From: Candidatus Helarchaeota archaeon
GTDB lineage: Archaea > Asgardarchaeota > Lokiarchaeia > Helarchaeales > RDOG01
NCBI GenBank assembly: GCA_029838215.1
Contig: JALGVI010000061.1
Location: 1 to 29,031 of the forward strand
Direction: 5' to 3'
Length of the DNA stretch: 29,031 nt
Shown here: positions 1-6,313 of the stretch, one piece after another
Layout of the letters: each line of letters starts with the position of its first letter
How positions within the stretch are numbered: position 1 is the stretch's first letter
Notes under the pieces: model-generated
Database searches by the model: none
What the model saw: the letters and a program-made list of their open reading frames with translations, nothing else
Told to the model about the DNA's origin: nothing
Program-made: the position numbers and the translations under genes

Positions 1-45
1 CGTGAATCTTCCGATTTATTCATGAAGAAAACTGAGGAACTGAAC

Positions 46-804
46 ATGTCGTCATTTGAGAATGAAAGTGTCAAGCGGGCCATTCAAGACTTGAACGTGG
101 GAAAATTCATCCTTGTTTATGATGTTGATGGTCGTGAGGAAGAGGTAGACTTGGTAGTTTTAGCCGAAAAAGTTACAAATGAACACGTTTACCATTTGCG
201 TCATGATGCGGGTGGTTTGATCTGTATTGCCATGGATAAAAAGATTGGTGATGGTTTAGGACTCCCATTTATGGCAGAAGTGTATTCAAAGCTGCGGAGT
301 GAATATCAAATTTTCGAATCCGTTGCACCATATGGTCATAAAGAGGAACGTTGTAGTTATGGCGACAAGCCTTCTTTTAGCATTACCATAAACCATCGCA
401 ATACACGTACAGGAATAACGGACCATGATCGTGCACTAACAATTTCAGAATTTGCAAAGCTTGGACGACAAGTATTTCACAACGGAGTGGATCCGGTGGC
501 ATATCGCGAGCAATTTGGTAAGAATTTTAGGGCTCCCGGACACACGCATTTACTTTTAGCTGCGCCTCAATTGTTGAAGGATCGAAAAGGACACACGGAA
601 TTAACGGTTACTTTGGCTCGGTTAGGAAATTTGACACCCGTTATTGTTCTCTGCGAAATGCTTGATGGCAAGACAGGTAGAGCACTTTCCTTGAAAAAAG
701 CGCGAGAATATGCCCGAGAACATGGTTTGGTAATGGTCGAAGGCAAGGAAATCATAAGCGCATTTAACGAGCAGTTCAAGGAGTTATTCATTCAAAATGC
801 CTAA
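46..804 (+). CDS. ribB: 3,4-dihydroxy-2-butanone 4-phosphate synthase, archaeal type
   Basis: Motifs REEEVD (cf. RENEGD), GGLICIA, TGITDHDRALT, PGH, RKGHTE, LCEML. ATG at 46 is preferred over 22 because GAGGA lies just upstream (34-38). The frame is also open back to position 1. Confidence 0.95.
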   Translation: MSSFENESVKRAIQDLNVGKFILVYDVDGREEEVDLVVLAEKVTNEHVYHLRHDAGGLICIAMDKKIGDGLGLPFMAEVYSKLRSEYQIFESVAPYGHKEERCSYGDKPSFSITINHRNTRTGITDHDRALTISEFAKLGRQVFHNGVDPVAYREQFGKNFRAPGHTHLLLAAPQLLKDRKGHTELTVTLARLGNLTPVIVLCEMLDGKTGRALSLKKAREYAREHGLVMVEGKEIISAFNEQFKELFIQNA

Positions 805-1270
805 AATAAAAGTTGGCATTGCAGACACGACCTTTGCCCGCGTGGACATGGGTGCCATGGCAATTGACGAGCTCCTTCAATTGACATCTAAAATCGAAGT
901 TGTCCGATATACTGTTCCTGGAATGAAGGATTTACCTGTTGCTTGTAAGATACTTTTTGAGCAACATGATTGTGCGATTTGCATGGCTATAGGGATGCCG
1001 GGACCTGCTGATAAAGATAAAATCTGTGCGCACGAAGCGTCGCAAGGAATTATCAATTGTCAATTGCAAACAGGCAGGCACATTATCGAATGTTTTGTCC
1101 ACGAAGATGAAGCAGAAACTCCGAAAGAATTAATAGAAGTATGTGAAAATCGGTCGCGAAAACACGCACGTAATATTTTTTATCTTTTATTTGATAAAAA
1201 ATGGTTCATAAAAAATGCAGGAAAGGGTCTTCGGCAGGGATTTCCTGATGCGGGACCCATAAAAGCTTGA
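797..1270 (+). CDS. ribC: Riboflavin synthase, archaeal (lumazine-synthase-like pentameric) type
   Basis: N-terminal KVGIADTTFARVDMG, RYTVPGMKDLPVACK, GMPG..DK.CAHEAS and HIIECFVHEDE are typical of the archaeal enzyme. Overlaps the ribB stop. Confidence 0.93.
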   Translation: MPKIKVGIADTTFARVDMGAMAIDELLQLTSKIEVVRYTVPGMKDLPVACKILFEQHDCAICMAIGMPGPADKDKICAHEASQGIINCQLQTGRHIIECFVHEDEAETPKELIEVCENRSRKHARNIFYLLFDKKWFIKNAGKGLRQGFPDAGPIKA

Positions 1271-1284
1271 AAATGGTGTGAAAC

Positions 1285-1713
1285 ATGTCTGAAGAAATAC
1301 GATTAGGATTTGTCGTGGGTGAATTCCATTACGACATCACTAGCATGATGCTTGAAAAAGCTAAAGAACACGCCGAATTCCTCGGTTGTAAGGTAATTAC
1401 CGTCTTTAAGGTTCCTGGTAGCTTTGACATGCCTTTAGCAATTAAGACTCTATTAAAGCGAGATGATATTGATGCCGTGGTTTGTATTGGTGCCGTTATC
1501 ACGGGTGATACGGATCATGACCAAATTGTTGCTCAGCACGCTGCACGAAAAATGGTAGATCTATCTTTGGAATTTGATAAACCCGTTGCTTTGGGTGTAT
1601 CGGGACCGGGCATGACAAGGCTTGAAGCCGTTGAAAGAATCGAAGATTTTGCACGGCGTTCTACAGAAAGCGCGGTAAAAATGGTTAAGAGAAAAAGAGA
1701 ACAATCTAAATGA
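1285..1713 (+). CDS. ribH: 6,7-dimethyl-8-ribityllumazine synthase
   Basis: [41 protein letters not shown] motifs; position in the rib operon. Confidence 0.95.
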
Positions 1714-1723
1714 GGAACTATCT

Positions 1724-2479
1724 TTGATTCAAATTACAATAATCCAATTAGATAATTTTGGTCCATACACGGAAACGCTAGGTGACGATAGAGAGCATGA
1801 TGTCCAAATAGTATTGGCAAAAGCTTACCTGCTCTTGCAGGATCTTTTCAGCCGGAAGAATGGGCTTGTTTTTCAAGCCTCCAAGGACAACATGATCGCC
1901 GTGACCAATGGAATCTCCATCAAAGAACACGAACAAATCATGAATCTATTCGAGCAAGAACTTCAAATCACGTGTTCCATGGGGATTGGTGTGGGAATAA
2001 CACCGATGGAAGCTCAGATAAAAGCTTCTAGAGCCCTGCAAAAGATGGGTAGTGCACAATCTTCTCGTCGGAAAGTTCTTGCGAATAATGGATCGATTCC
2101 AGAACCAAATGGAGCCATTCATATCGCCCACGTAGACATCAACGATTTCACGATTCACGCGACAGATAAAAATCCCATTTATGATAATTTTTATTTACTA
2201 AATCGAAGTTATCTCACGCTAATGGAGTCATTCCAAAAAATCGGAGCACTCTGTTTTTTTAATGGAGGAGATAACTTCGTTACAATTTGTCCTGAGAATT
2301 TCCCTCTTGATGAATTCAAGCGAATTATTTCAAATTATGAAAGACTCCATAGTCCATGGAAGCTGAAAGCAGGGATTGGAAAGGGCGACACTGCAAAAAT
2401 TGCCATGCTAAATGCGAATAAAGGATTGACAACCATTCGAAAGCACGAATCGGAAGACATGATTGTTTTGGTGGAGTAG
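1724..2479 (+). CDS. arfA: GTP cyclohydrolase III (IIa)
   Basis: IQITIIQLDNFGPYTETLGDDREHDVQ start; duplicated cyclase-like halves with KDN and GGDN motifs; TTG start after GAGGA. Confidence 0.9.
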   Translation: MIQITIIQLDNFGPYTETLGDDREHDVQIVLAKAYLLLQDLFSRKNGLVFQASKDNMIAVTNGISIKEHEQIMNLFEQELQITCSMGIGVGITPMEAQIKASRALQKMGSAQSSRRKVLANNGSIPEPNGAIHIAHVDINDFTIHATDKNPIYDNFYLLNRSYLTLMESFQKIGALCFFNGGDNFVTICPENFPLDEFKRIISNYERLHSPWKLKAGIGKGDTAKIAMLNANKGLTTIRKHESEDMIVLVE

Positions 2480-2482
2480 CGT

Positions 2483-3667
2483 GTGTCCTCAAATACTCTT
2501 TTTGTAAAACATGCCTTGATTGGAGAAGAATTGGAGCTCAAGCAAAACGTCGAATTGAAGTATTCTGAAGGATACATCGATAGGATTTCCATTGACGTCA
2601 AGGCATCGACTGAACCCAAAATCACGGATTGTCTTTTGATTCCAGGGCTCATTAACGGTCATACCCATATCGGTGATTCTTTTGCGAAGGAAATGGGGTA
2701 TGGAAAGACACTTTCAGAGGTAGTTGAGCCTCCAAACGGGATTAAGCATCGACTTCTATCAACCGTTTCCCAAGAAGAACTCATTTCTGGGATGAGATTA
2801 GCGATTAGGGAAATGCTTTCTAGTGGAACAACGTTATTTGCAGATTATCGAGAAGGTGGAATTGATGGCATTTATGCATTAAAGCAATTATTAAAAGAGA
2901 GCATGATTAAAAGCATCATTCTCGGGCGACCTCACCCTACGGTTGACATGGAGAAGTTGCAAAACGTTTTAAAAATGTCGGATGGTCTCGGAATCAATTC
3001 AATAAACCTCCTATCCGATTCCGAGTTAGAACTCGCGAAATTATTTTGCGTGGAAGGTCAGAAAATTATCTCGACCCATGCGTCAGAAACAAGCCAAGAA
3101 CGTGACATTTCTTTTCAAAAACACGGTAAATCAGACATCGAGCGAGCCATTAACACTTTCAATGCAGAGTATTTGATCCATTGCATTTATAGTAACGACA
3201 ATGACTTGGATTTGATAGCAAAAAAGAACGTTGCCGTAGGAATCTGTCCACGGGCTAACCATTATTTTGGCTTAGACGTGCCTCCCATCCAAAAGATGAT
3301 TGAACGTGACATAACGCTTTGTCTGGGAACGGATAACGTGATGGCAAATTCACCGGATCTCTTTCGTGAAATGGAATTTTTGGCGAAATATGCCTGTCAT
3401 TTGAAGAATCCCATTCCAGCAAGAGAGATTTTAAAGATGGTGACCATCAATCCTGCTCGTGTATTTCGCCTCGATCACATACTTGGATGCTTGAAAGAAA
3501 TGAACAGGGCAGATTTTTTTCTTCTTGATCTTACAGCACCAAATCTCCGTCCTATTAATCAATCTCATATCTATGAGACCATCGTATTACGTGCAAAAGC
3601 AAGTAATGTAGTTTCAACACACGTTAATGGCATGAAAACCCACGACCGGAGGGAGTTGCTGTCCTAA
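2483..3667 (+). CDS. Metal-dependent amidohydrolase-superfamily deaminase (candidate pyrimidine deaminase of riboflavin synthesis)
   Basis: PGLINGHTHIGD (HxH), THASE (HxxE), LIHC, LGTDN (catalytic Asp) and the C-terminal beta-sandwich strands. GTG start after GGTGGAG. The family is well supported; the specific function is inference. Confidence 0.85.
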   Translation: MSSNTLFVKHALIGEELELKQNVELKYSEGYIDRISIDVKASTEPKITDCLLIPGLINGHTHIGDSFAKEMGYGKTLSEVVEPPNGIKHRLLSTVSQEELISGMRLAIREMLSSGTTLFADYREGGIDGIYALKQLLKESMIKSIILGRPHPTVDMEKLQNVLKMSDGLGINSINLLSDSELELAKLFCVEGQKIISTHASETSQERDISFQKHGKSDIERAINTFNAEYLIHCIYSNDNDLDLIAKKNVAVGICPRANHYFGLDVPPIQKMIERDITLCLGTDNVMANSPDLFREMEFLAKYACHLKNPIPAREILKMVTINPARVFRLDHILGCLKEMNRADFFLLDLTAPNLRPINQSHIYETIVLRAKASNVVSTHVNGMKTHDRRELLS

Positions 3668-3690
3668 CCGACATCACCATCCCAAAATCT

Positions 3691-4377
3691 CGTCCGTATG
3701 TCATATTAAATGCAGCCATGAGTGTTGACGGCAAAATTGCTTCCAGAGTAGGGGATTGCGAGTTCTCTGATGACGAAGATTGGAAGCGCGTTCACAAGTT
3801 GCGTGCAAGCGTAGACGCGATCATGGTCGGCAGGAGGACAATTGAAACAGACGATTCGAAGTTGACGATAAAATCATTTCCAGATTTTAAAATTCCTATT
3901 TCAAAATTCCCCACGAGAGTCGTGGTTGATGGTTTGGCGAAGACACCAGCCACGGCGCGGATATTCACCGTAGAATTGGAACATTATCCATCAATTCTCG
4001 CTACTACGACAAATGCCCCGAAAGAGAAACTTGACGAAATCAGAGCATTAGGCGTGAAAGTATTGGTTTGTGGGAAGGGACCTCGAGTTGATCTCGTTCA
4101 CTTGATGAGAGACCTCCGCACGATGAACATTCGAACGCTCCTTTTAGAAGGTGGTGGAACTTTAAATTTCAGCATGTTGGAGAATGATTTAATAGATGAG
4201 GTGAGCCTTTCTGTGGCGCCTGTTCTTGTTGGTGGACTATCAGCCACTTCATTAATTGGTGGAAAGGGCTTTGATAAAATTAAGCAATCCTGTCAATTAG
4301 AACTCATTGAATTCGAAAAACTCGGAAAGAACCTCTTCGTGCGATATTTGGTTCGACGGAATGGCGAAAAAACGTGA
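3691..4377 (+). CDS. arfC: 2,5-diamino-6-ribosylamino-4(3H)-pyrimidinone 5'-phosphate reductase (RibD C-terminal domain family); true start unresolved
   Basis: RPYVILNAAMSVDGKIA, RVHKLRASVDAIMVG, LLLEGGGTLNFS, APVLVGG. The conserved RPYVILNAA (3691-3717) lies upstream of the first ATG (3718). Confidence 0.9.
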   Translation, partial: RPYVILNAAMSVDGKIASRVGDCEFSDDEDWKRVHKLRASVDAIMVGRRTIETDDSKLTIKSFPDFKIPISKFPTRVVVDGLAKTPATARIFTVELEHYPSILATTTNAPKEKLDEIRALGVKVLVCGKGPRVDLVHLMRDLRTMNIRTLLLEGGGTLNFSMLENDLIDEVSLSVAPVLVGGLSATSLIGGKGFDKIKQSCQLELIEFEKLGKNLFVRYLVRRNGEKT

Positions 4378-5033
4378 AAAGGAAAATACTTCCCATTGGT
4401 TCATTCGAACAGCACGGTCCACACCTACCGTTAGAAACAGATTCACTCATTGCAGAAAAAATTTCTCGAGAACTCTCGCGAAATATTCAGGCAGACCTCC
4501 TAGAGACGATCAAGGTGAGCTGTTCCGATGAACACGCGGATTTTTCAGGAACTAAAAGCATTTCAGGGGAAACTTTCGAAGAATTAATAATTAAAGTACT
4601 TAAAAAAGAACTCAATTCCACGCAACAATTAATTGTTTTCAATGCGCATGGTGGAAATTCTCAAATACTTAAGAAAATTGCAAGATCCAATCCAGAAGTC
4701 CTATTTCTCGATTTATTTGAAACCATTAAAGGCCATCTCATCCAAACCCGCGATTCTTCTTTGGGTGGAATATGTCATGCAGGTGAATTTGAGACTTCGT
4801 TAATGATGTATTTGTTTCCATCTTTAGTAAGGGTTCAAGAAATCAAGCCTGAAATCGTAACGCTCGTTCCAGAGCTCGACCCGGATTTTGACGGTAATCC
4901 GCCAAAAACGTGGAAGACGATAAAATTTAGTAAATCGGGCGTATTAGGAGATCCAACGAAAGCAACCAAATCAAAAGGGGAAGCTTGGTTTAAAATAATA
5001 ATTAAAGAATGCTTGAATCGCATTAATTGTTAA
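4374..5033 (+). CDS. arfB: Creatininase-family formamide hydrolase (FAPy 5'-phosphate deformylase)
   Basis: LPIGSFEQHGPHLPLETD, SDEH, NAHGGN, HAGEFETS metal-site motifs; GTGA overlap with the arfC stop; context with arfA and arfC. Confidence 0.85.
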   Translation: MKRKILPIGSFEQHGPHLPLETDSLIAEKISRELSRNIQADLLETIKVSCSDEHADFSGTKSISGETFEELIIKVLKKELNSTQQLIVFNAHGGNSQILKKIARSNPEVLFLDLFETIKGHLIQTRDSSLGGICHAGEFETSLMMYLFPSLVRVQEIKPEIVTLVPELDPDFDGNPPKTWKTIKFSKSGVLGDPTKATKSKGEAWFKIIIKECLNRINC

Positions 5034-5053: not shown

Positions 5054-6313
5054 TTAATCTTTTTCTAGCTGATCCAATTTCGTGAAGATTATCTTCTTTG
5101 CCTGAATCCATTTCTCATATTCTTGCTTACAATTAGCATCCAGACCGAATTTTTGAAAAGTGGGTAGGTTTCCTTCAATCCAATTCGCCAAATCAGTATC
5201 GTAACCATCAATGCTGGTCCGTAATTCTTGACTTCGCGATACGACCAGTTCCATTAGCTCTGAAAGTTGTGTCATGTAATATGAAATACTTTCAGTAATG
5301 TTCTTTTCCATCTCTACTAGGAGGTTTTTAACAGGTTCTGGACTTGCCACGGTGACCGTCTTCTCGGCTACTTCACCGGGTCTAACAATTTCTTCCTTGA
5401 CACCTTCTGGTGCTAGTTGGTTGATGATATCTTTTATGGTATCTAGAAAAATCTGAGTTTTTTGATCTCCAAATTCCCCACTTATCGTATTAACTATGGT
5501 TCCAGCTTCGGAGAGAATTGGAGTGAATCCCTGTTTCAGGTCAAATAGACATTGGTATATCAAAGGTTCATTCTCCATTTGACCAGCATGACAAGTCATC
5601 ACGCCGCGCTTTTGATCTGTAAACACGACGGTAATTATAGGAGACCCAAGTCCGGTGCTTTCACCTTTTTCTTTAATGACGGCATCTAATGACAATAGTC
5701 CCCCTCCAAATGCATCAGCATCAACATTAATTTGATCTTGTTTATGAAAGGCAATTGGCAATCCCAACTCATTCGTAATGCTTTGTACAAGAATGAGCGG
5801 ATTTTTACCTTGAGTGAGAACGGCATCAATCACGTCGAAATCATCAATGGCTTCTTGATATATCCCAATGGAAGAAGCAGATCCTCTATATAACGTAGGG
5901 AGAACTTCAGATACACCTCTCACGACGGAGAAATCATAGCCTTGGAGTCCTAACTCATTTATCCACATATTTACAAGATCATTTAATGATGAACTAATAA
6001 CATCCGTGTCCAACGCAAATTGATCGCGATGGTCTAACAAAATTATGAGATATCCCAATCCAATTTCGATCCCGATGATGGTAAGATCATGAAAAATTGA
6101 GATGTGAACGACTTCTTTCCCTAGATTAAGGAATTCGCAAATTTCCTGAGCCGCCTTATAGCAACTCGACTCCATCGCCCCTAACCCTTCAATGGGTGAA
6201 ATTCGCAGGACTTTAGAGATAACCAACCCTACCTTATCACATATCAAGACTTCTTTTATTGATCTCGATGATCGCAAGATTTTTGCAAGTATTGTTTGAG
6301 GAGATATTGACAT
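5054..6313 (-). CDS. Protein with two Roadblock/LC7-like domains and a C-terminal helical/coiled-coil region
   Basis: Two alpha-beta-beta-alpha-beta-beta-beta-alpha units, each with the D/N-x-x-G-L hairpin signature (ICDKVGLVI; ITNELGLPI), followed by an amphipathic helical tail. Confidence 0.7.
   Translation of the reverse strand: MSISPQTILAKILRSSRSIKEVLICDKVGLVISKVLRISPIEGLGAMESSCYKAAQEICEFLNLGKEVVHISIFHDLTIIGIEIGLGYLIILLDHRDQFALDTDVISSSLNDLVNMWINELGLQGYDFSVVRGVSEVLPTLYRGSASSIGIYQEAIDDFDVIDAVLTQGKNPLILVQSITNELGLPIAFHKQDQINVDADAFGGGLLSLDAVIKEKGESTGLGSPIITVVFTDQKRGVMTCHAGQMENEPLIYQCLFDLKQGFTPILSEAGTIVNTISGEFGDQKTQIFLDTIKDIINQLAPEGVKEEIVRPGEVAEKTVTVASPEPVKNLLVEMEKNITESISYYMTQLSELMELVVSRSQELRTSIDGYDTDLANWIEGNLPTFQKFGLDANCKQEYEKWIQAKKIIFTKLDQLEKD

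What the first reader, a model, noticed from the sequence alone, without database searches (positions are those of the whole stretch)
2483..3667. Amidohydrolase embedded in an otherwise complete archaeal riboflavin operon: candidate for the unassigned pyrimidine deaminase
Seen: ribB-ribC-ribH-arfA-X-arfC-arfB are co-oriented with gaps of 14 nt or less, or overlaps, apart from the unresolved X/arfC junction. X has the full amidohydrolase metal set (HxH, H, H, D) and the HxxE motif (THASE) of nucleobase deaminases. Established: the ArfA/ArfB/ArfC route yields 2,5-diamino-6-ribitylamino-4(3H)-pyrimidinone 5'-phosphate, which must be deaminated before RibH can use it. Bacteria use the cytidine-deaminase-fold RibD domain and fungi use Rib2. 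To my knowledge no enzyme is firmly assigned in archaea using this route. Inference: X is a non-orthologous replacement from a different fold. Similar neighbourhood-based suggestions may already exist for other archaea and should be checked.
Basis: partly seen in the sequence, partly recalled or inferred. Interest (0 to 1): 0.82.

Follow-up and report, generated by a model that had tools for sequence, protein, structure and literature searches.

The report
Predicted archaeal riboflavin pyrimidine deaminase gene
The gene between arfA and arfC in this Asgard archaeon's vitamin B2 operon is a metal-dependent deaminase that very probably carries out the one archaeal riboflavin step never assayed, but its family (MJ0699, "PyrD") was already proposed for that job in 2010 and 2017, so this is a well-supported rediscovery.

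Summary
On a Helarchaeales (Asgard) contig, ribB, ribC, ribH, arfA, X, arfC and a creatininase-type arfB candidate form one tight co-oriented operon.

X (2483-3667, 394 aa) has the HxH, HxxE (H199-A-S-E202), H233 and D284 set. Its AlphaFold model (pLDDT 96.7) matches amidohydrolase-superfamily nucleobase deaminases.

- X scores above the curated cut-off of NCBIfam NF005552.
- I traced M. jannaschii MJ0699 (Q58110) to this same family: 589 bits, and 35% identity to X.
- MJ0699 and HVO_2483 are the published, still untested "PyrD" candidates (Osterman et al. 2010, cited in Rodionova 2017; Pfeiffer and Dyall-Smith 2021).
- Some database records already name members "Pyrimidine deaminase archaeal predicted".

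Support measured here:
- X is directly followed by arfC in 64 of 78 usable loci from other archaeal species.
- In 121 Asgard genomes, X and arfC co-occur (53 both, 62 neither, 3 and 3 discordant). They are adjacent in 53 of 53 genomes with both.
- One natural X-ArfC fusion exists.
- The genome (94% complete) has no cytidine-deaminase-fold protein and no other deaminase-type amidohydrolase.

This scan has made the same rediscovery many times on other genomes. No enzyme assay was found in the literature I could search.

The parts
22..804 (+). [quoted passage not shown]
   Evidence: PF00926 7.4e-54; TIGR00506 205 bits, cut-off 177
797..1270 (+). ribC, archaeal riboflavin synthase
   Evidence: TIGR01506 ribC_arch 207 bits, cut-off 100.6
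1285..1713 (+). ribH, 6,7-dimethyl-8-ribityllumazine synthase
   Evidence: TIGR00114 143 bits, cut-off 84.6
1724..2479 (+). arfA, GTP cyclohydrolase III/IIa
   Evidence: PF05165 2.7e-59. NF002587 gives 210 bits, below its cut-off of 306
2483..3667 (+). X, an MJ0699-family ('PyrD') amidohydrolase-type deaminase. It is the predicted 2,5-diamino-6-ribitylamino-4(3H)-pyrimidinone 5'-phosphate deaminase.
   Evidence: NF005552 324 bits, cut-off 294. 35% identity to MJ0699, E 7e-64. AF2 pLDDT 96.7. Foldseek TM 0.82-0.87 to COG0402-type deaminases.
3673..4377 (+). arfC, diaminohydroxyphosphoribosylaminopyrimidine reductase. The 5' end is uncertain: the frame is open from 3628, the first canonical start is ATG 3718, and the probable start is ATC 3673 or ATC 3679.
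   Evidence: PF01872 4.7e-44. TIGR01508 scores 192.9 bits over 3694-4347 in the genome search. The TIGR00326 match begins at 3685. All substitutions in 3691-3717 against two relatives are synonymous, and a relative has GTG where the window has ATC 3673.
4374..5033 (+). Creatininase-family hydrolase, a candidate ArfB (formamide hydrolase)
   Evidence: PF02633 4.2e-51. The NCBIfam ArfB model NF033501 gives only 40 bits against a cut-off of 180. The same gene follows arfC in L005, L009, L022, L050 and L118.

Best explanation
X is the archaeal pyrimidine deaminase of riboflavin and deazaflavin (FO/F420) precursor synthesis. It is a member of the MJ0699 ('PyrD') family.

Proposed mechanism (inferred from the superfamily):
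- X is a mononuclear metal enzyme of the amidohydrolase superfamily.
- H60, H62, H199 and D284 hold the metal and its water.
- E202 of the HxxE motif and H233 shuttle protons.
- The activated hydroxide attacks C2 of 2,5-diamino-6-(5-phospho-D-ribitylamino)pyrimidin-4(3H)-one, the product of the adjacent ArfC.
- Ammonia is released, giving 5-amino-6-(5-phospho-D-ribitylamino)uracil.
- After dephosphorylation this product feeds RibH, and in other archaea CofG/CofH.

X therefore replaces, from an unrelated fold, the cytidine-deaminase-fold domain of bacterial RibD and fungal Rib2.

Shown here: family membership, fold, ligand set, gene linkage, co-occurrence, and absence of the alternative deaminase.
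Inferred: the substrate, the order of steps and the chemistry.
For: (1) Family.
- X scores 324 bits on NF005552 (cut-off 294), far above any other deaminase model (next best 118 bits).
- MJ0699 (P0389 = AAB98692.1 / Q58110) scores 589 bits on the same model. It is 35% identical to X over 373 residues, E 7e-64.
- Methanocaldococcus lauensis members carry the source name 'Pyrimidine deaminase archaeal predicted'.

(2) Literature. PMC5397151 and PMC8305020 name this candidate (MJ0699, HVO_2483) for this step.

(3) Synteny.
- In 80 loci from other species, X is directly followed by arfC in 64 of the 78 with room downstream.
- Contexts are ribB-ribH-arfA-X-arfC (31 loci), X-arfC-cofG-cofH (21 loci), or full rib operons.
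- RibH (riboflavin) and CofG/CofH (FO) both need the deaminated pyrimidine (established pathway knowledge).

(4) Co-occurrence in 121 Asgard genomes.
- 53 have both X and ArfC, 62 have neither, 3 have only a weak X-like hit, and 3 have only ArfC.
- The two genes are adjacent in 53 of 53 genomes with both, and X is always single-copy.

(5) A natural fusion. P0250 (636 aa) joins an X-type domain to ArfC (TIGR01508, 197 bits) and sits just upstream of cofG and cofH.

(6) No alternative deaminase.
- PF00383 is absent from the whole genome, and the only RibD hit is the arfC reductase.
- Full-length RibD is absent from the 4 archaeal controls and from 151 Thermoproteota, but present in all 10 bacterial controls.
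- The X family at E<=1e-40 shows the opposite pattern: it hits all 4 archaeal controls and none of the 10 bacterial ones.

(7) Fold and active site.
- The AF2 model has pLDDT 96.7.
- Its nearest structures are adenosine/MTA, isocytosine and guanine deaminases and triazine hydrolases, TM 0.82-0.87.
- The ligands and the family-specific K88, R123/E124, R149, R257, N285 and R370 are invariant or nearly so.
- R123/E124, R149, R257 and N285 sit at the C-terminal ends of barrel strands, that is, on the catalytic face. K88 lies in a helix inserted between strands 1 and 2.
- R123/E124, R149, R257 and N285 are not shared with the closest solved structure, 3lnp.
- A cluster of basic residues fits a phosphorylated substrate (inference).

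(8) Chemistry. Guanine, 8-oxoguanine and isocytosine deaminases of this same group remove the 2-amino group from a 2-amino-4-oxopyrimidine ring. The reaction therefore has precedent (established knowledge; structures listed).
Against: - No member of the family has been assayed. I found no biochemical or genetic test in the searchable literature.
- All the evidence is comparative.
- In Methanobacteria the gene stands alone, away from rib genes (10 loci), so linkage is not universal.
- X is the only deaminase-type amidohydrolase in this genome. A second role, for example on 5'-deoxyadenosine or MTA, cannot be excluded here by partition among paralogues.
- The fusion protein is a single sequence from one metagenome-assembled genome. 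It could be an assembly frameshift.
Confidence: 0.8

Rival explanations
1. X is a deaminase of the same pathway but acts on a different intermediate. It might act on the ribosyl form before ArfC reduction (the bacterial order), or on the dephosphorylated ribityl compound.
For: Gene order is arfA-X-arfC, with X upstream of the reductase, in nearly all loci. Nothing computed here fixes the order of steps or the phosphorylation state.
Against: In M. jannaschii the reductase acts on the diamino (not yet deaminated) compound, so deamination follows reduction (Graupner et al. 2002, as summarised in PMC5397151). Several invariant Arg and Lys residues on the catalytic face suggest a phosphorylated ligand (inference).
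Confidence: 0.1
2. X is an ordinary salvage or detoxification deaminase, of DadD/MTA/SAH/adenosine, guanine or pterin type. Its position in the operon would then have no functional meaning.
For: Its closest solved structures are such enzymes. It is the only enzyme of this type in the genome.
Against: - Scores on those models are far below their cut-offs: 5'-deoxyadenosine deaminase 112 of 522, MTA/SAH deaminase 59 of 779, guanine deaminase 78 of 375.
- X is only 15-22% identical to the solved enzymes.
- Adjacency to arfC holds in 53 of 53 Asgard genomes and across three phyla.
- X is absent exactly where ArfC is absent.
- M. jannaschii has MJ0699 in addition to a separate 5'-deoxyadenosine deaminase (MJ1541; from my own knowledge, not tested here).
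Confidence: 0.04
3. X fills another open step of the pathway. It might be the formamide hydrolase (an ArfB substitute) or the phosphatase acting on the ribitylaminouracil phosphate.
For: The thaumarchaeal operons ribB-ribH-arfA-X-arfC contain no arfB. The amidohydrolase superfamily includes deacylases. The phosphatase is still unassigned in archaea (PMC8305020).
Against: - X coexists with a creatininase-type ArfB candidate in this operon, elsewhere in the Nitrosopumilus genome G002, and in G001 and G003. The M. jannaschii control genome also scores for both the creatininase family and the X family.
- The invariant HxxE motif and mononuclear ligand set are the signature of the deaminase and dechlorinase branch.
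Confidence: 0.04

Closest known systems
MJ0699 (UniProt Q58110) / HVO_2483 family. This equals NCBIfam NF005552 (PRK07213 'chlorohydrolase'), the SEED role 'Pyrimidine deaminase archaeal predicted', and 'PyrD' of Rodionova et al. 2017.
   Same: - X scores above the model's curated cut-off and is 35% identical to MJ0699.
- It has the same invariant residues, which can be read in the alignment.
- It shows the same clustering with riboflavin genes that led to the published prediction.
   Different: - This is an Asgard (Helarchaeales) member sitting in a complete seven-gene operon.
- In this clade arfC lacks a canonical start codon.
- Neither this protein nor any other member has a demonstrated activity.
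Bacterial RibD N-terminal domain and fungal Rib2 deaminase (cytidine-deaminase fold, PF00383)
   Same: The proposed reaction type is the same: removal of the 2-amino group of the diaminopyrimidinone intermediate. Both are linked to the RibD_C-type reductase by adjacency, and in one case by fusion.
   Different: The fold and metal site are unrelated: a TIM-barrel amidohydrolase against a zinc CDA fold. PF00383 is not found in this genome. Like Rib2, X is expected to act after reduction, on the ribityl form.
COG0402-type amidohydrolase deaminases with solved structures: 3lnp, MTA/SAH/adenosine deaminases 4f0r, 4gbd and 4dzh, isocytosine deaminase 7ww2, guanine deaminases 6ohb and 2uz9, and AtzA 4v1x
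   Same: The fold is the same (TM 0.82-0.87), as are the HxH, HxxE, H and D catalytic set and the chemistry of hydrolytic deamination of an amino-substituted heteroaromatic ring.
   Different: - Identity is only 15-22%.
- The family-specific K88 (PPxGxKH), R123-E124 (DFREGG), R149 (LGRP), R257 (CPR) and N285 (GTDN) are not matched in 3lnp, the closest solved structure.
- X is about 40-70 residues shorter than most of these enzymes.

Membership tests
MJ0699 / NF005552 ('PyrD', predicted archaeal pyrimidine deaminase) | Score above the curated cut-off of the NCBIfam equivalog model | tested here: met
   324.3 bits against a cut-off of 294; 323.9 bits in the genome search
MJ0699 / NF005552 ('PyrD', predicted archaeal pyrimidine deaminase) | Full-length homology to the named candidate MJ0699 (Q58110) | tested here: met
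   P0389 was identified as MJ0699 by its accessions. BLASTP gives 35% identity over 373 aa, E 7e-64. MJ0699 itself scores 589 bits on NF005552.
MJ0699 / NF005552 ('PyrD', predicted archaeal pyrimidine deaminase) | Chromosomal clustering and co-occurrence with riboflavin pathway genes, which was the basis of the published prediction | tested here: met
   X-arfC adjacency in 64 of 78 loci. In 121 Asgard genomes: 53 both, 62 neither, 53 of 53 adjacent.
MJ0699 / NF005552 ('PyrD', predicted archaeal pyrimidine deaminase) | Deaminase activity on 2,5-diamino-6-ribitylamino-4(3H)-pyrimidinone 5'-phosphate | not testable with these tools
   No assay of any member was found in the searchable literature.
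Amidohydrolase superfamily, mononuclear deaminase branch (COG0402 type) | HxH after strand 1, H in HxxE after strand 5, H after strand 6, D after strand 8 | tested here: met
   H60/H62, H199/E202, H233 and D284 are invariant in 94 sequences. They lie at strand ends in the model.
Amidohydrolase superfamily, mononuclear deaminase branch (COG0402 type) | (beta/alpha)8 barrel with an N/C-terminal beta-sandwich, matching solved members | tested here: met
   AF2 pLDDT 96.7, pTM 0.95. Foldseek E 1.8e-28, TM 0.87 to 3lnp and 0.86-0.87 to 4gbd and 4dzh.
RibD / Rib2 cytidine-deaminase-fold pyrimidine deaminase | PF00383 zinc deaminase domain | tested here: not met
   X has no such hit. PF00383 has no match in the whole genome. 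TIGR00326 matches only the reductase part of arfC.
5'-deoxyadenosine (DadD) and MTA/SAH deaminases | Score above the NCBIfam cut-offs of NF005557 and NF012037 | tested here: not met
   112 bits against 522, and 59 bits against 779
Guanine deaminase | Score above the TIGR02967 cut-off | tested here: not met
   77.9 bits against 375.4

The most novel reading that the evidence does not exclude
X and ArfC work as an obligatorily coupled deaminase-reductase pair, a non-homologous analogue of bifunctional RibD. They are occasionally fused (P0250). In this Helarchaeales clade their expression is coupled so tightly that arfC has lost its canonical start codon. It would then be translated from ATC 3673, six nucleotides after the stop of X, by termination-reinitiation or near-cognate initiation.
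Probability: 0.25. Interest if true: 0.45.

Novelty: new member of a known kind. Interest (0 to 1): 0.3.

Why it matters
The deamination step is one of the last steps of archaeal riboflavin and F420-precursor synthesis without an experimentally assigned enzyme. The dephosphorylation step is the other.

This locus adds a clean Asgard example to a candidate that has stood untested since 2010:
- a complete operon;
- no competing deaminase in the genome;
- near-perfect co-occurrence and adjacency with arfC;
- a high-confidence structural model.

It does not change what is thought. Its value is to show that the published prediction also holds across Asgard archaea. It also supplies residues to mutate and a well-behaved candidate for the overdue assay.

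Tried and rejected
- A complex prediction of X with ArfC, using paired alignments A4 and A5, gave 'no answer' (score 0.00). It says nothing about binding either way.
- A search for fused forms longer than 690 aa found none. The one fusion found (636 aa) came from the exhaustive representative search.
- I tried to reach M. jannaschii through the phylum of a Methanobacteriaceae genome. That sample appeared to contain only Methanobacteria-type sequences: the ten top-scoring loci I inspected had about 50% or 29% GC. It did show the family above cut-off in 199 of 201 genomes. MJ0699 was finally reached through Methanotorris igneus.
- Literature searches for MJ0699, HVO_2483, the SEED role name, 'chlorohydrolase' with riboflavin, and 'ribitylamino' with amidohydrolase found no experimental characterisation. 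The 2010 book chapter is not in the library and was not read.
- Assembly error at the X/arfC junction was considered and rejected. Two independent relatives (71% and 67% identical) have the same frame arrangement and the same 50-nt distance to the ATG, with no indels. Read mapping was therefore not run.
- The idea that X substitutes for ArfB was considered and rejected, because the two coexist.

Full report
**What is there**

The window is one end of a contig (G000:C168) of a 94.3%-complete Asgard genome. The nearest relatives of X are labelled Helarchaeales and Helarchaeota.

Seven co-oriented genes open the window:
- ribB, 22-804
- ribC, 797-1270
- ribH, 1285-1713
- arfA (GTP cyclohydrolase III), 1724-2479
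- X, 2483-3667
- arfC (RibD_C-type reductase), frame open 3628-4377
- a creatininase-family gene, 4374-5033

Gaps between genes are 14, 10 and 3 nt, or overlaps of 8 and 4 nt. X is 394 aa and starts at GTG, 3 nt after the arfA stop. It contains H60-T-H62, H199-A-S-E202, H233 and D284.

The 'arfB' label needs care. The gene is a clear Creatininase-family member, but it scores only 40 bits on the NCBIfam ArfB model, whose cut-off is 180.

**What X is**

- Pfam places X in Amidohydro_1 (2.1e-38).
- NCBIfam places it above the curated cut-off of the equivalog model NF005552 (PRK07213, 'chlorohydrolase'; 324 against 294 bits). All other deaminase models fall far below theirs.
- An exhaustive search found 265 clusters (at 50% identity) with E<=1e-30.
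- In 94 diverse members (27-71% identical to X), H60, H62, D65, G115, H199, E202, H233, G282, D284 and N285 are invariant. K88, E124, R149, C255-P256-R257, E296 and R370 are nearly so.
- An AlphaFold2 model built on this alignment has mean pLDDT 96.7 and pTM 0.95.
- The model's strands end at 61, 123, 148, 171, 200, 233, 254 and 281. This places the ligands, R123/E124, R149, R257 and N285 at the C-terminal face of the barrel, where amidohydrolases bind substrate.
- Foldseek finds only COG0402-type deaminases and dechlorinases: 3lnp, adenosine/MTA deaminases, isocytosine deaminase, guanine deaminases, AtzA and TrzN. TM scores are 0.82-0.87 at 15-22% identity.
- No structure of this subfamily has been solved.
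- R123/E124, R149, R257 and N285 are not matched in 3lnp.

**Link to the published candidate**

Rodionova et al. 2017 (PMC5397151) state that RibD-type deaminase domains are apparently missing in Archaea. They add that an archaeal-specific pyrimidine deaminase, 'PyrD', was proposed by Osterman, Overbeek and Rodionov (2010) from clustering and co-occurrence, and remained untested. Pfeiffer and Dyall-Smith 2021 (PMC8305020) name the candidates HVO_2483 and MJ0699 (Q58110). They say experimental confirmation is required.

Earlier notes of this scan asserted that MJ0699 belongs to NF005552. I tested this myself in five steps.
1. A representative of the family turned out to be the Methanotorris igneus protein.
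2. Its homologues include a Methanocaldococcus cluster.
3. One member of that cluster, P0389, carries the accessions AAB98692.1, WP_010870204.1 and Q58110, and the name 'Uncharacterized protein MJ0699'.
4. P0389 scores 589 bits on NF005552.
5. P0389 aligns with X at 35% identity over 373 residues, E 7e-64, with all the family residues in place.

Two M. lauensis members are even named 'Pyrimidine deaminase archaeal predicted'. X is therefore a member of the published candidate family.

**Gene linkage**

A scan of species-representative genomes returned 80 loci from Asgard archaea, Bathyarchaeia, Nitrososphaeria and Methanobacteria. I searched their open frames with the window's own proteins and with cofG and cofH taken from L120.
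- X is directly followed by arfC in 64 of the 78 loci with room downstream.
- 31 loci read ribB-ribH-arfA-X-arfC (ammonia oxidisers).
- 21 loci read X-arfC-cofG-cofH (Asgard).
- Several loci carry full rib operons like this one.
- 10 loci, from Methanobacteria, have X alone.

Both RibH and the FO synthase CofG/CofH consume 5-amino-6-ribitylaminouracil (established pathway knowledge). X thus travels with the reductase wherever that compound is needed.

The two closest relatives of X (71% and 67% identical) have the same operon. One of them has a CTP-dependent riboflavin kinase gene divergently upstream.

**Co-occurrence**

I sampled 121 Asgard genomes of at least 85% completeness.
- The X family (E<=1e-40) is present in 56, always as a single copy.
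- ArfC (TIGR01508, E<=1e-30) is present in 56.
- 53 genomes have both and 62 have neither.
- 3 genomes have only a weak X-like hit (142-150 bits), and 3 have only ArfC.
- In all 53 genomes with both, the two matches lie next to each other on the same contig and strand.
- Whole families have either both genes or neither. Examples: f2 22/25 for X and 23/25 for ArfC; f6 14/14 and 14/14; f18 6/6 and 6/6; f8 0/27 and 0/27.

Related genomes are not independent, so I give no statistic.

In a Methanobacteriota sample, 199 of 201 genomes carry the family above cut-off.

**Absence of the alternative**

- PF00383 has no match in this genome.
- The only RibD match is the reductase part of arfC.
- Full-length RibD (E<=1e-45) was found in none of 151 Thermoproteota and none of the 4 archaeal control genomes. 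It was found in all 10 bacterial controls.
- The X family at E<=1e-40 hits exactly the 4 archaeal controls.
- The other amidohydrolases of this genome are a dihydroorotase, a prolidase-like protein and a PRK09061-type protein. None is deaminase-type.

**A fusion**

P0250 (636 aa, from a Promethearchaeota metagenome-assembled genome) joins an X-type domain (residues 56-382) to a full ArfC (415-630). NF005552 gives 171 bits, below cut-off. TIGR01508 gives 197 bits, above cut-off.

Radical-SAM genes follow the fusion gene directly, the second one carrying a CofH_C domain. This mirrors the deaminase-reductase fusion of bacterial RibD.

It is a single sequence, so an assembly frameshift cannot be excluded. 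None of the 80 loci is fused.

**The X/arfC junction**

The ArfC frame is open from 3628. The conserved N-terminal strand (3691-3717) precedes the first ATG (3718), and no ATG, GTG or TTG lies between 3628 and 3718.

The two closest relatives have the same geometry without indels. In the nine codons 3691-3717, all 11 differences from the window are synonymous, so this stretch is translated.

The 71% relative has an in-frame GTG exactly where the window has ATC 3673-3675. The 67% relative also lacks a canonical start.

In 63 of 63 other loci, a canonical start lies at or shortly upstream of the equivalent position: 0-5 codons in 59 of them, 8-17 codons in the other 4.

The most economical reading is initiation at ATC 3673 (or ATC 3679), six nucleotides after the stop of X. 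A real fusion by frameshifting is not supported. This was partly followed up only.

**Rivals**

- X could act on another intermediate of the same pathway. This is not resolvable here.
- An unrelated salvage deaminase is made unlikely by the model scores and the linkage.
- An ArfB substitute is made unlikely because creatininase-type genes coexist with X in this operon, in the Nitrosopumilus genome G002, and in G001 and G003. The M. jannaschii control genome also scores for both families.

**Verdict**

It rediscovers a published and still untested prediction, and this scan has reached the same conclusion repeatedly on other genomes.

New here:
- the Asgard-wide co-occurrence and adjacency counts;
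- the fusion example;
- the structural placement of the family-specific basic residues;
- the non-canonical arfC start in this clade.

Noticed in passing
window 3628-3718: arfC has no ATG, GTG or TTG upstream of its conserved N-terminal strand. The stretch is nevertheless under purifying selection: 11 of 11 substitutions against two relatives are synonymous. A 71% relative has GTG where the window has ATC 3673. A 67% relative also lacks a canonical start, whereas 63 of 63 other loci have one.
   Followed up: partly
window 4374-5033: The creatininase-family gene that closes the operon scores best on the mycofactocin peptidase MftE model (133 bits, below its cut-off). It reaches only 40 bits on the NCBIfam ArfB model. 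The same type follows arfC in Asgard and Bathyarchaeia rib operons (L005, L009, L022, L050, L118). It may be a divergent clade of the formamide hydrolase.
   Followed up: partly
L120 6001-7911: A single 636-aa open frame in a Promethearchaeota metagenome-assembled genome fuses an X-type amidohydrolase to ArfC. cofG- and cofH-like radical SAM genes follow. It is a singleton cluster, so it may be a real fusion or an assembly frameshift.
   Followed up: partly
L005 630-632: In a Jordarchaeia rib operon, ribB carries an in-frame TAG inside the conserved T-G-V-T-D-x-D-R motif. It could be a sequencing error, a pseudogene or a recoded codon. The arfC of the same locus is interrupted only by a masked run of N.
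   Followed up: no
window 5054-6313 (- strand): A 419-aa open frame directly downstream of the operon, on the opposite strand, has no Pfam or NCBIfam match at E<=0.001.
   Followed up: no
G000:C86:2999-3373: The genome's only CTP-dependent riboflavin kinase domain lies in a 241-aa frame about 3 kb from a contig end. That length suggests an RbkR-type regulator/kinase. In relative L118 this gene sits divergently upstream of ribB, and the window's contig begins at ribB. The two contigs may therefore be neighbours.
   Followed up: no
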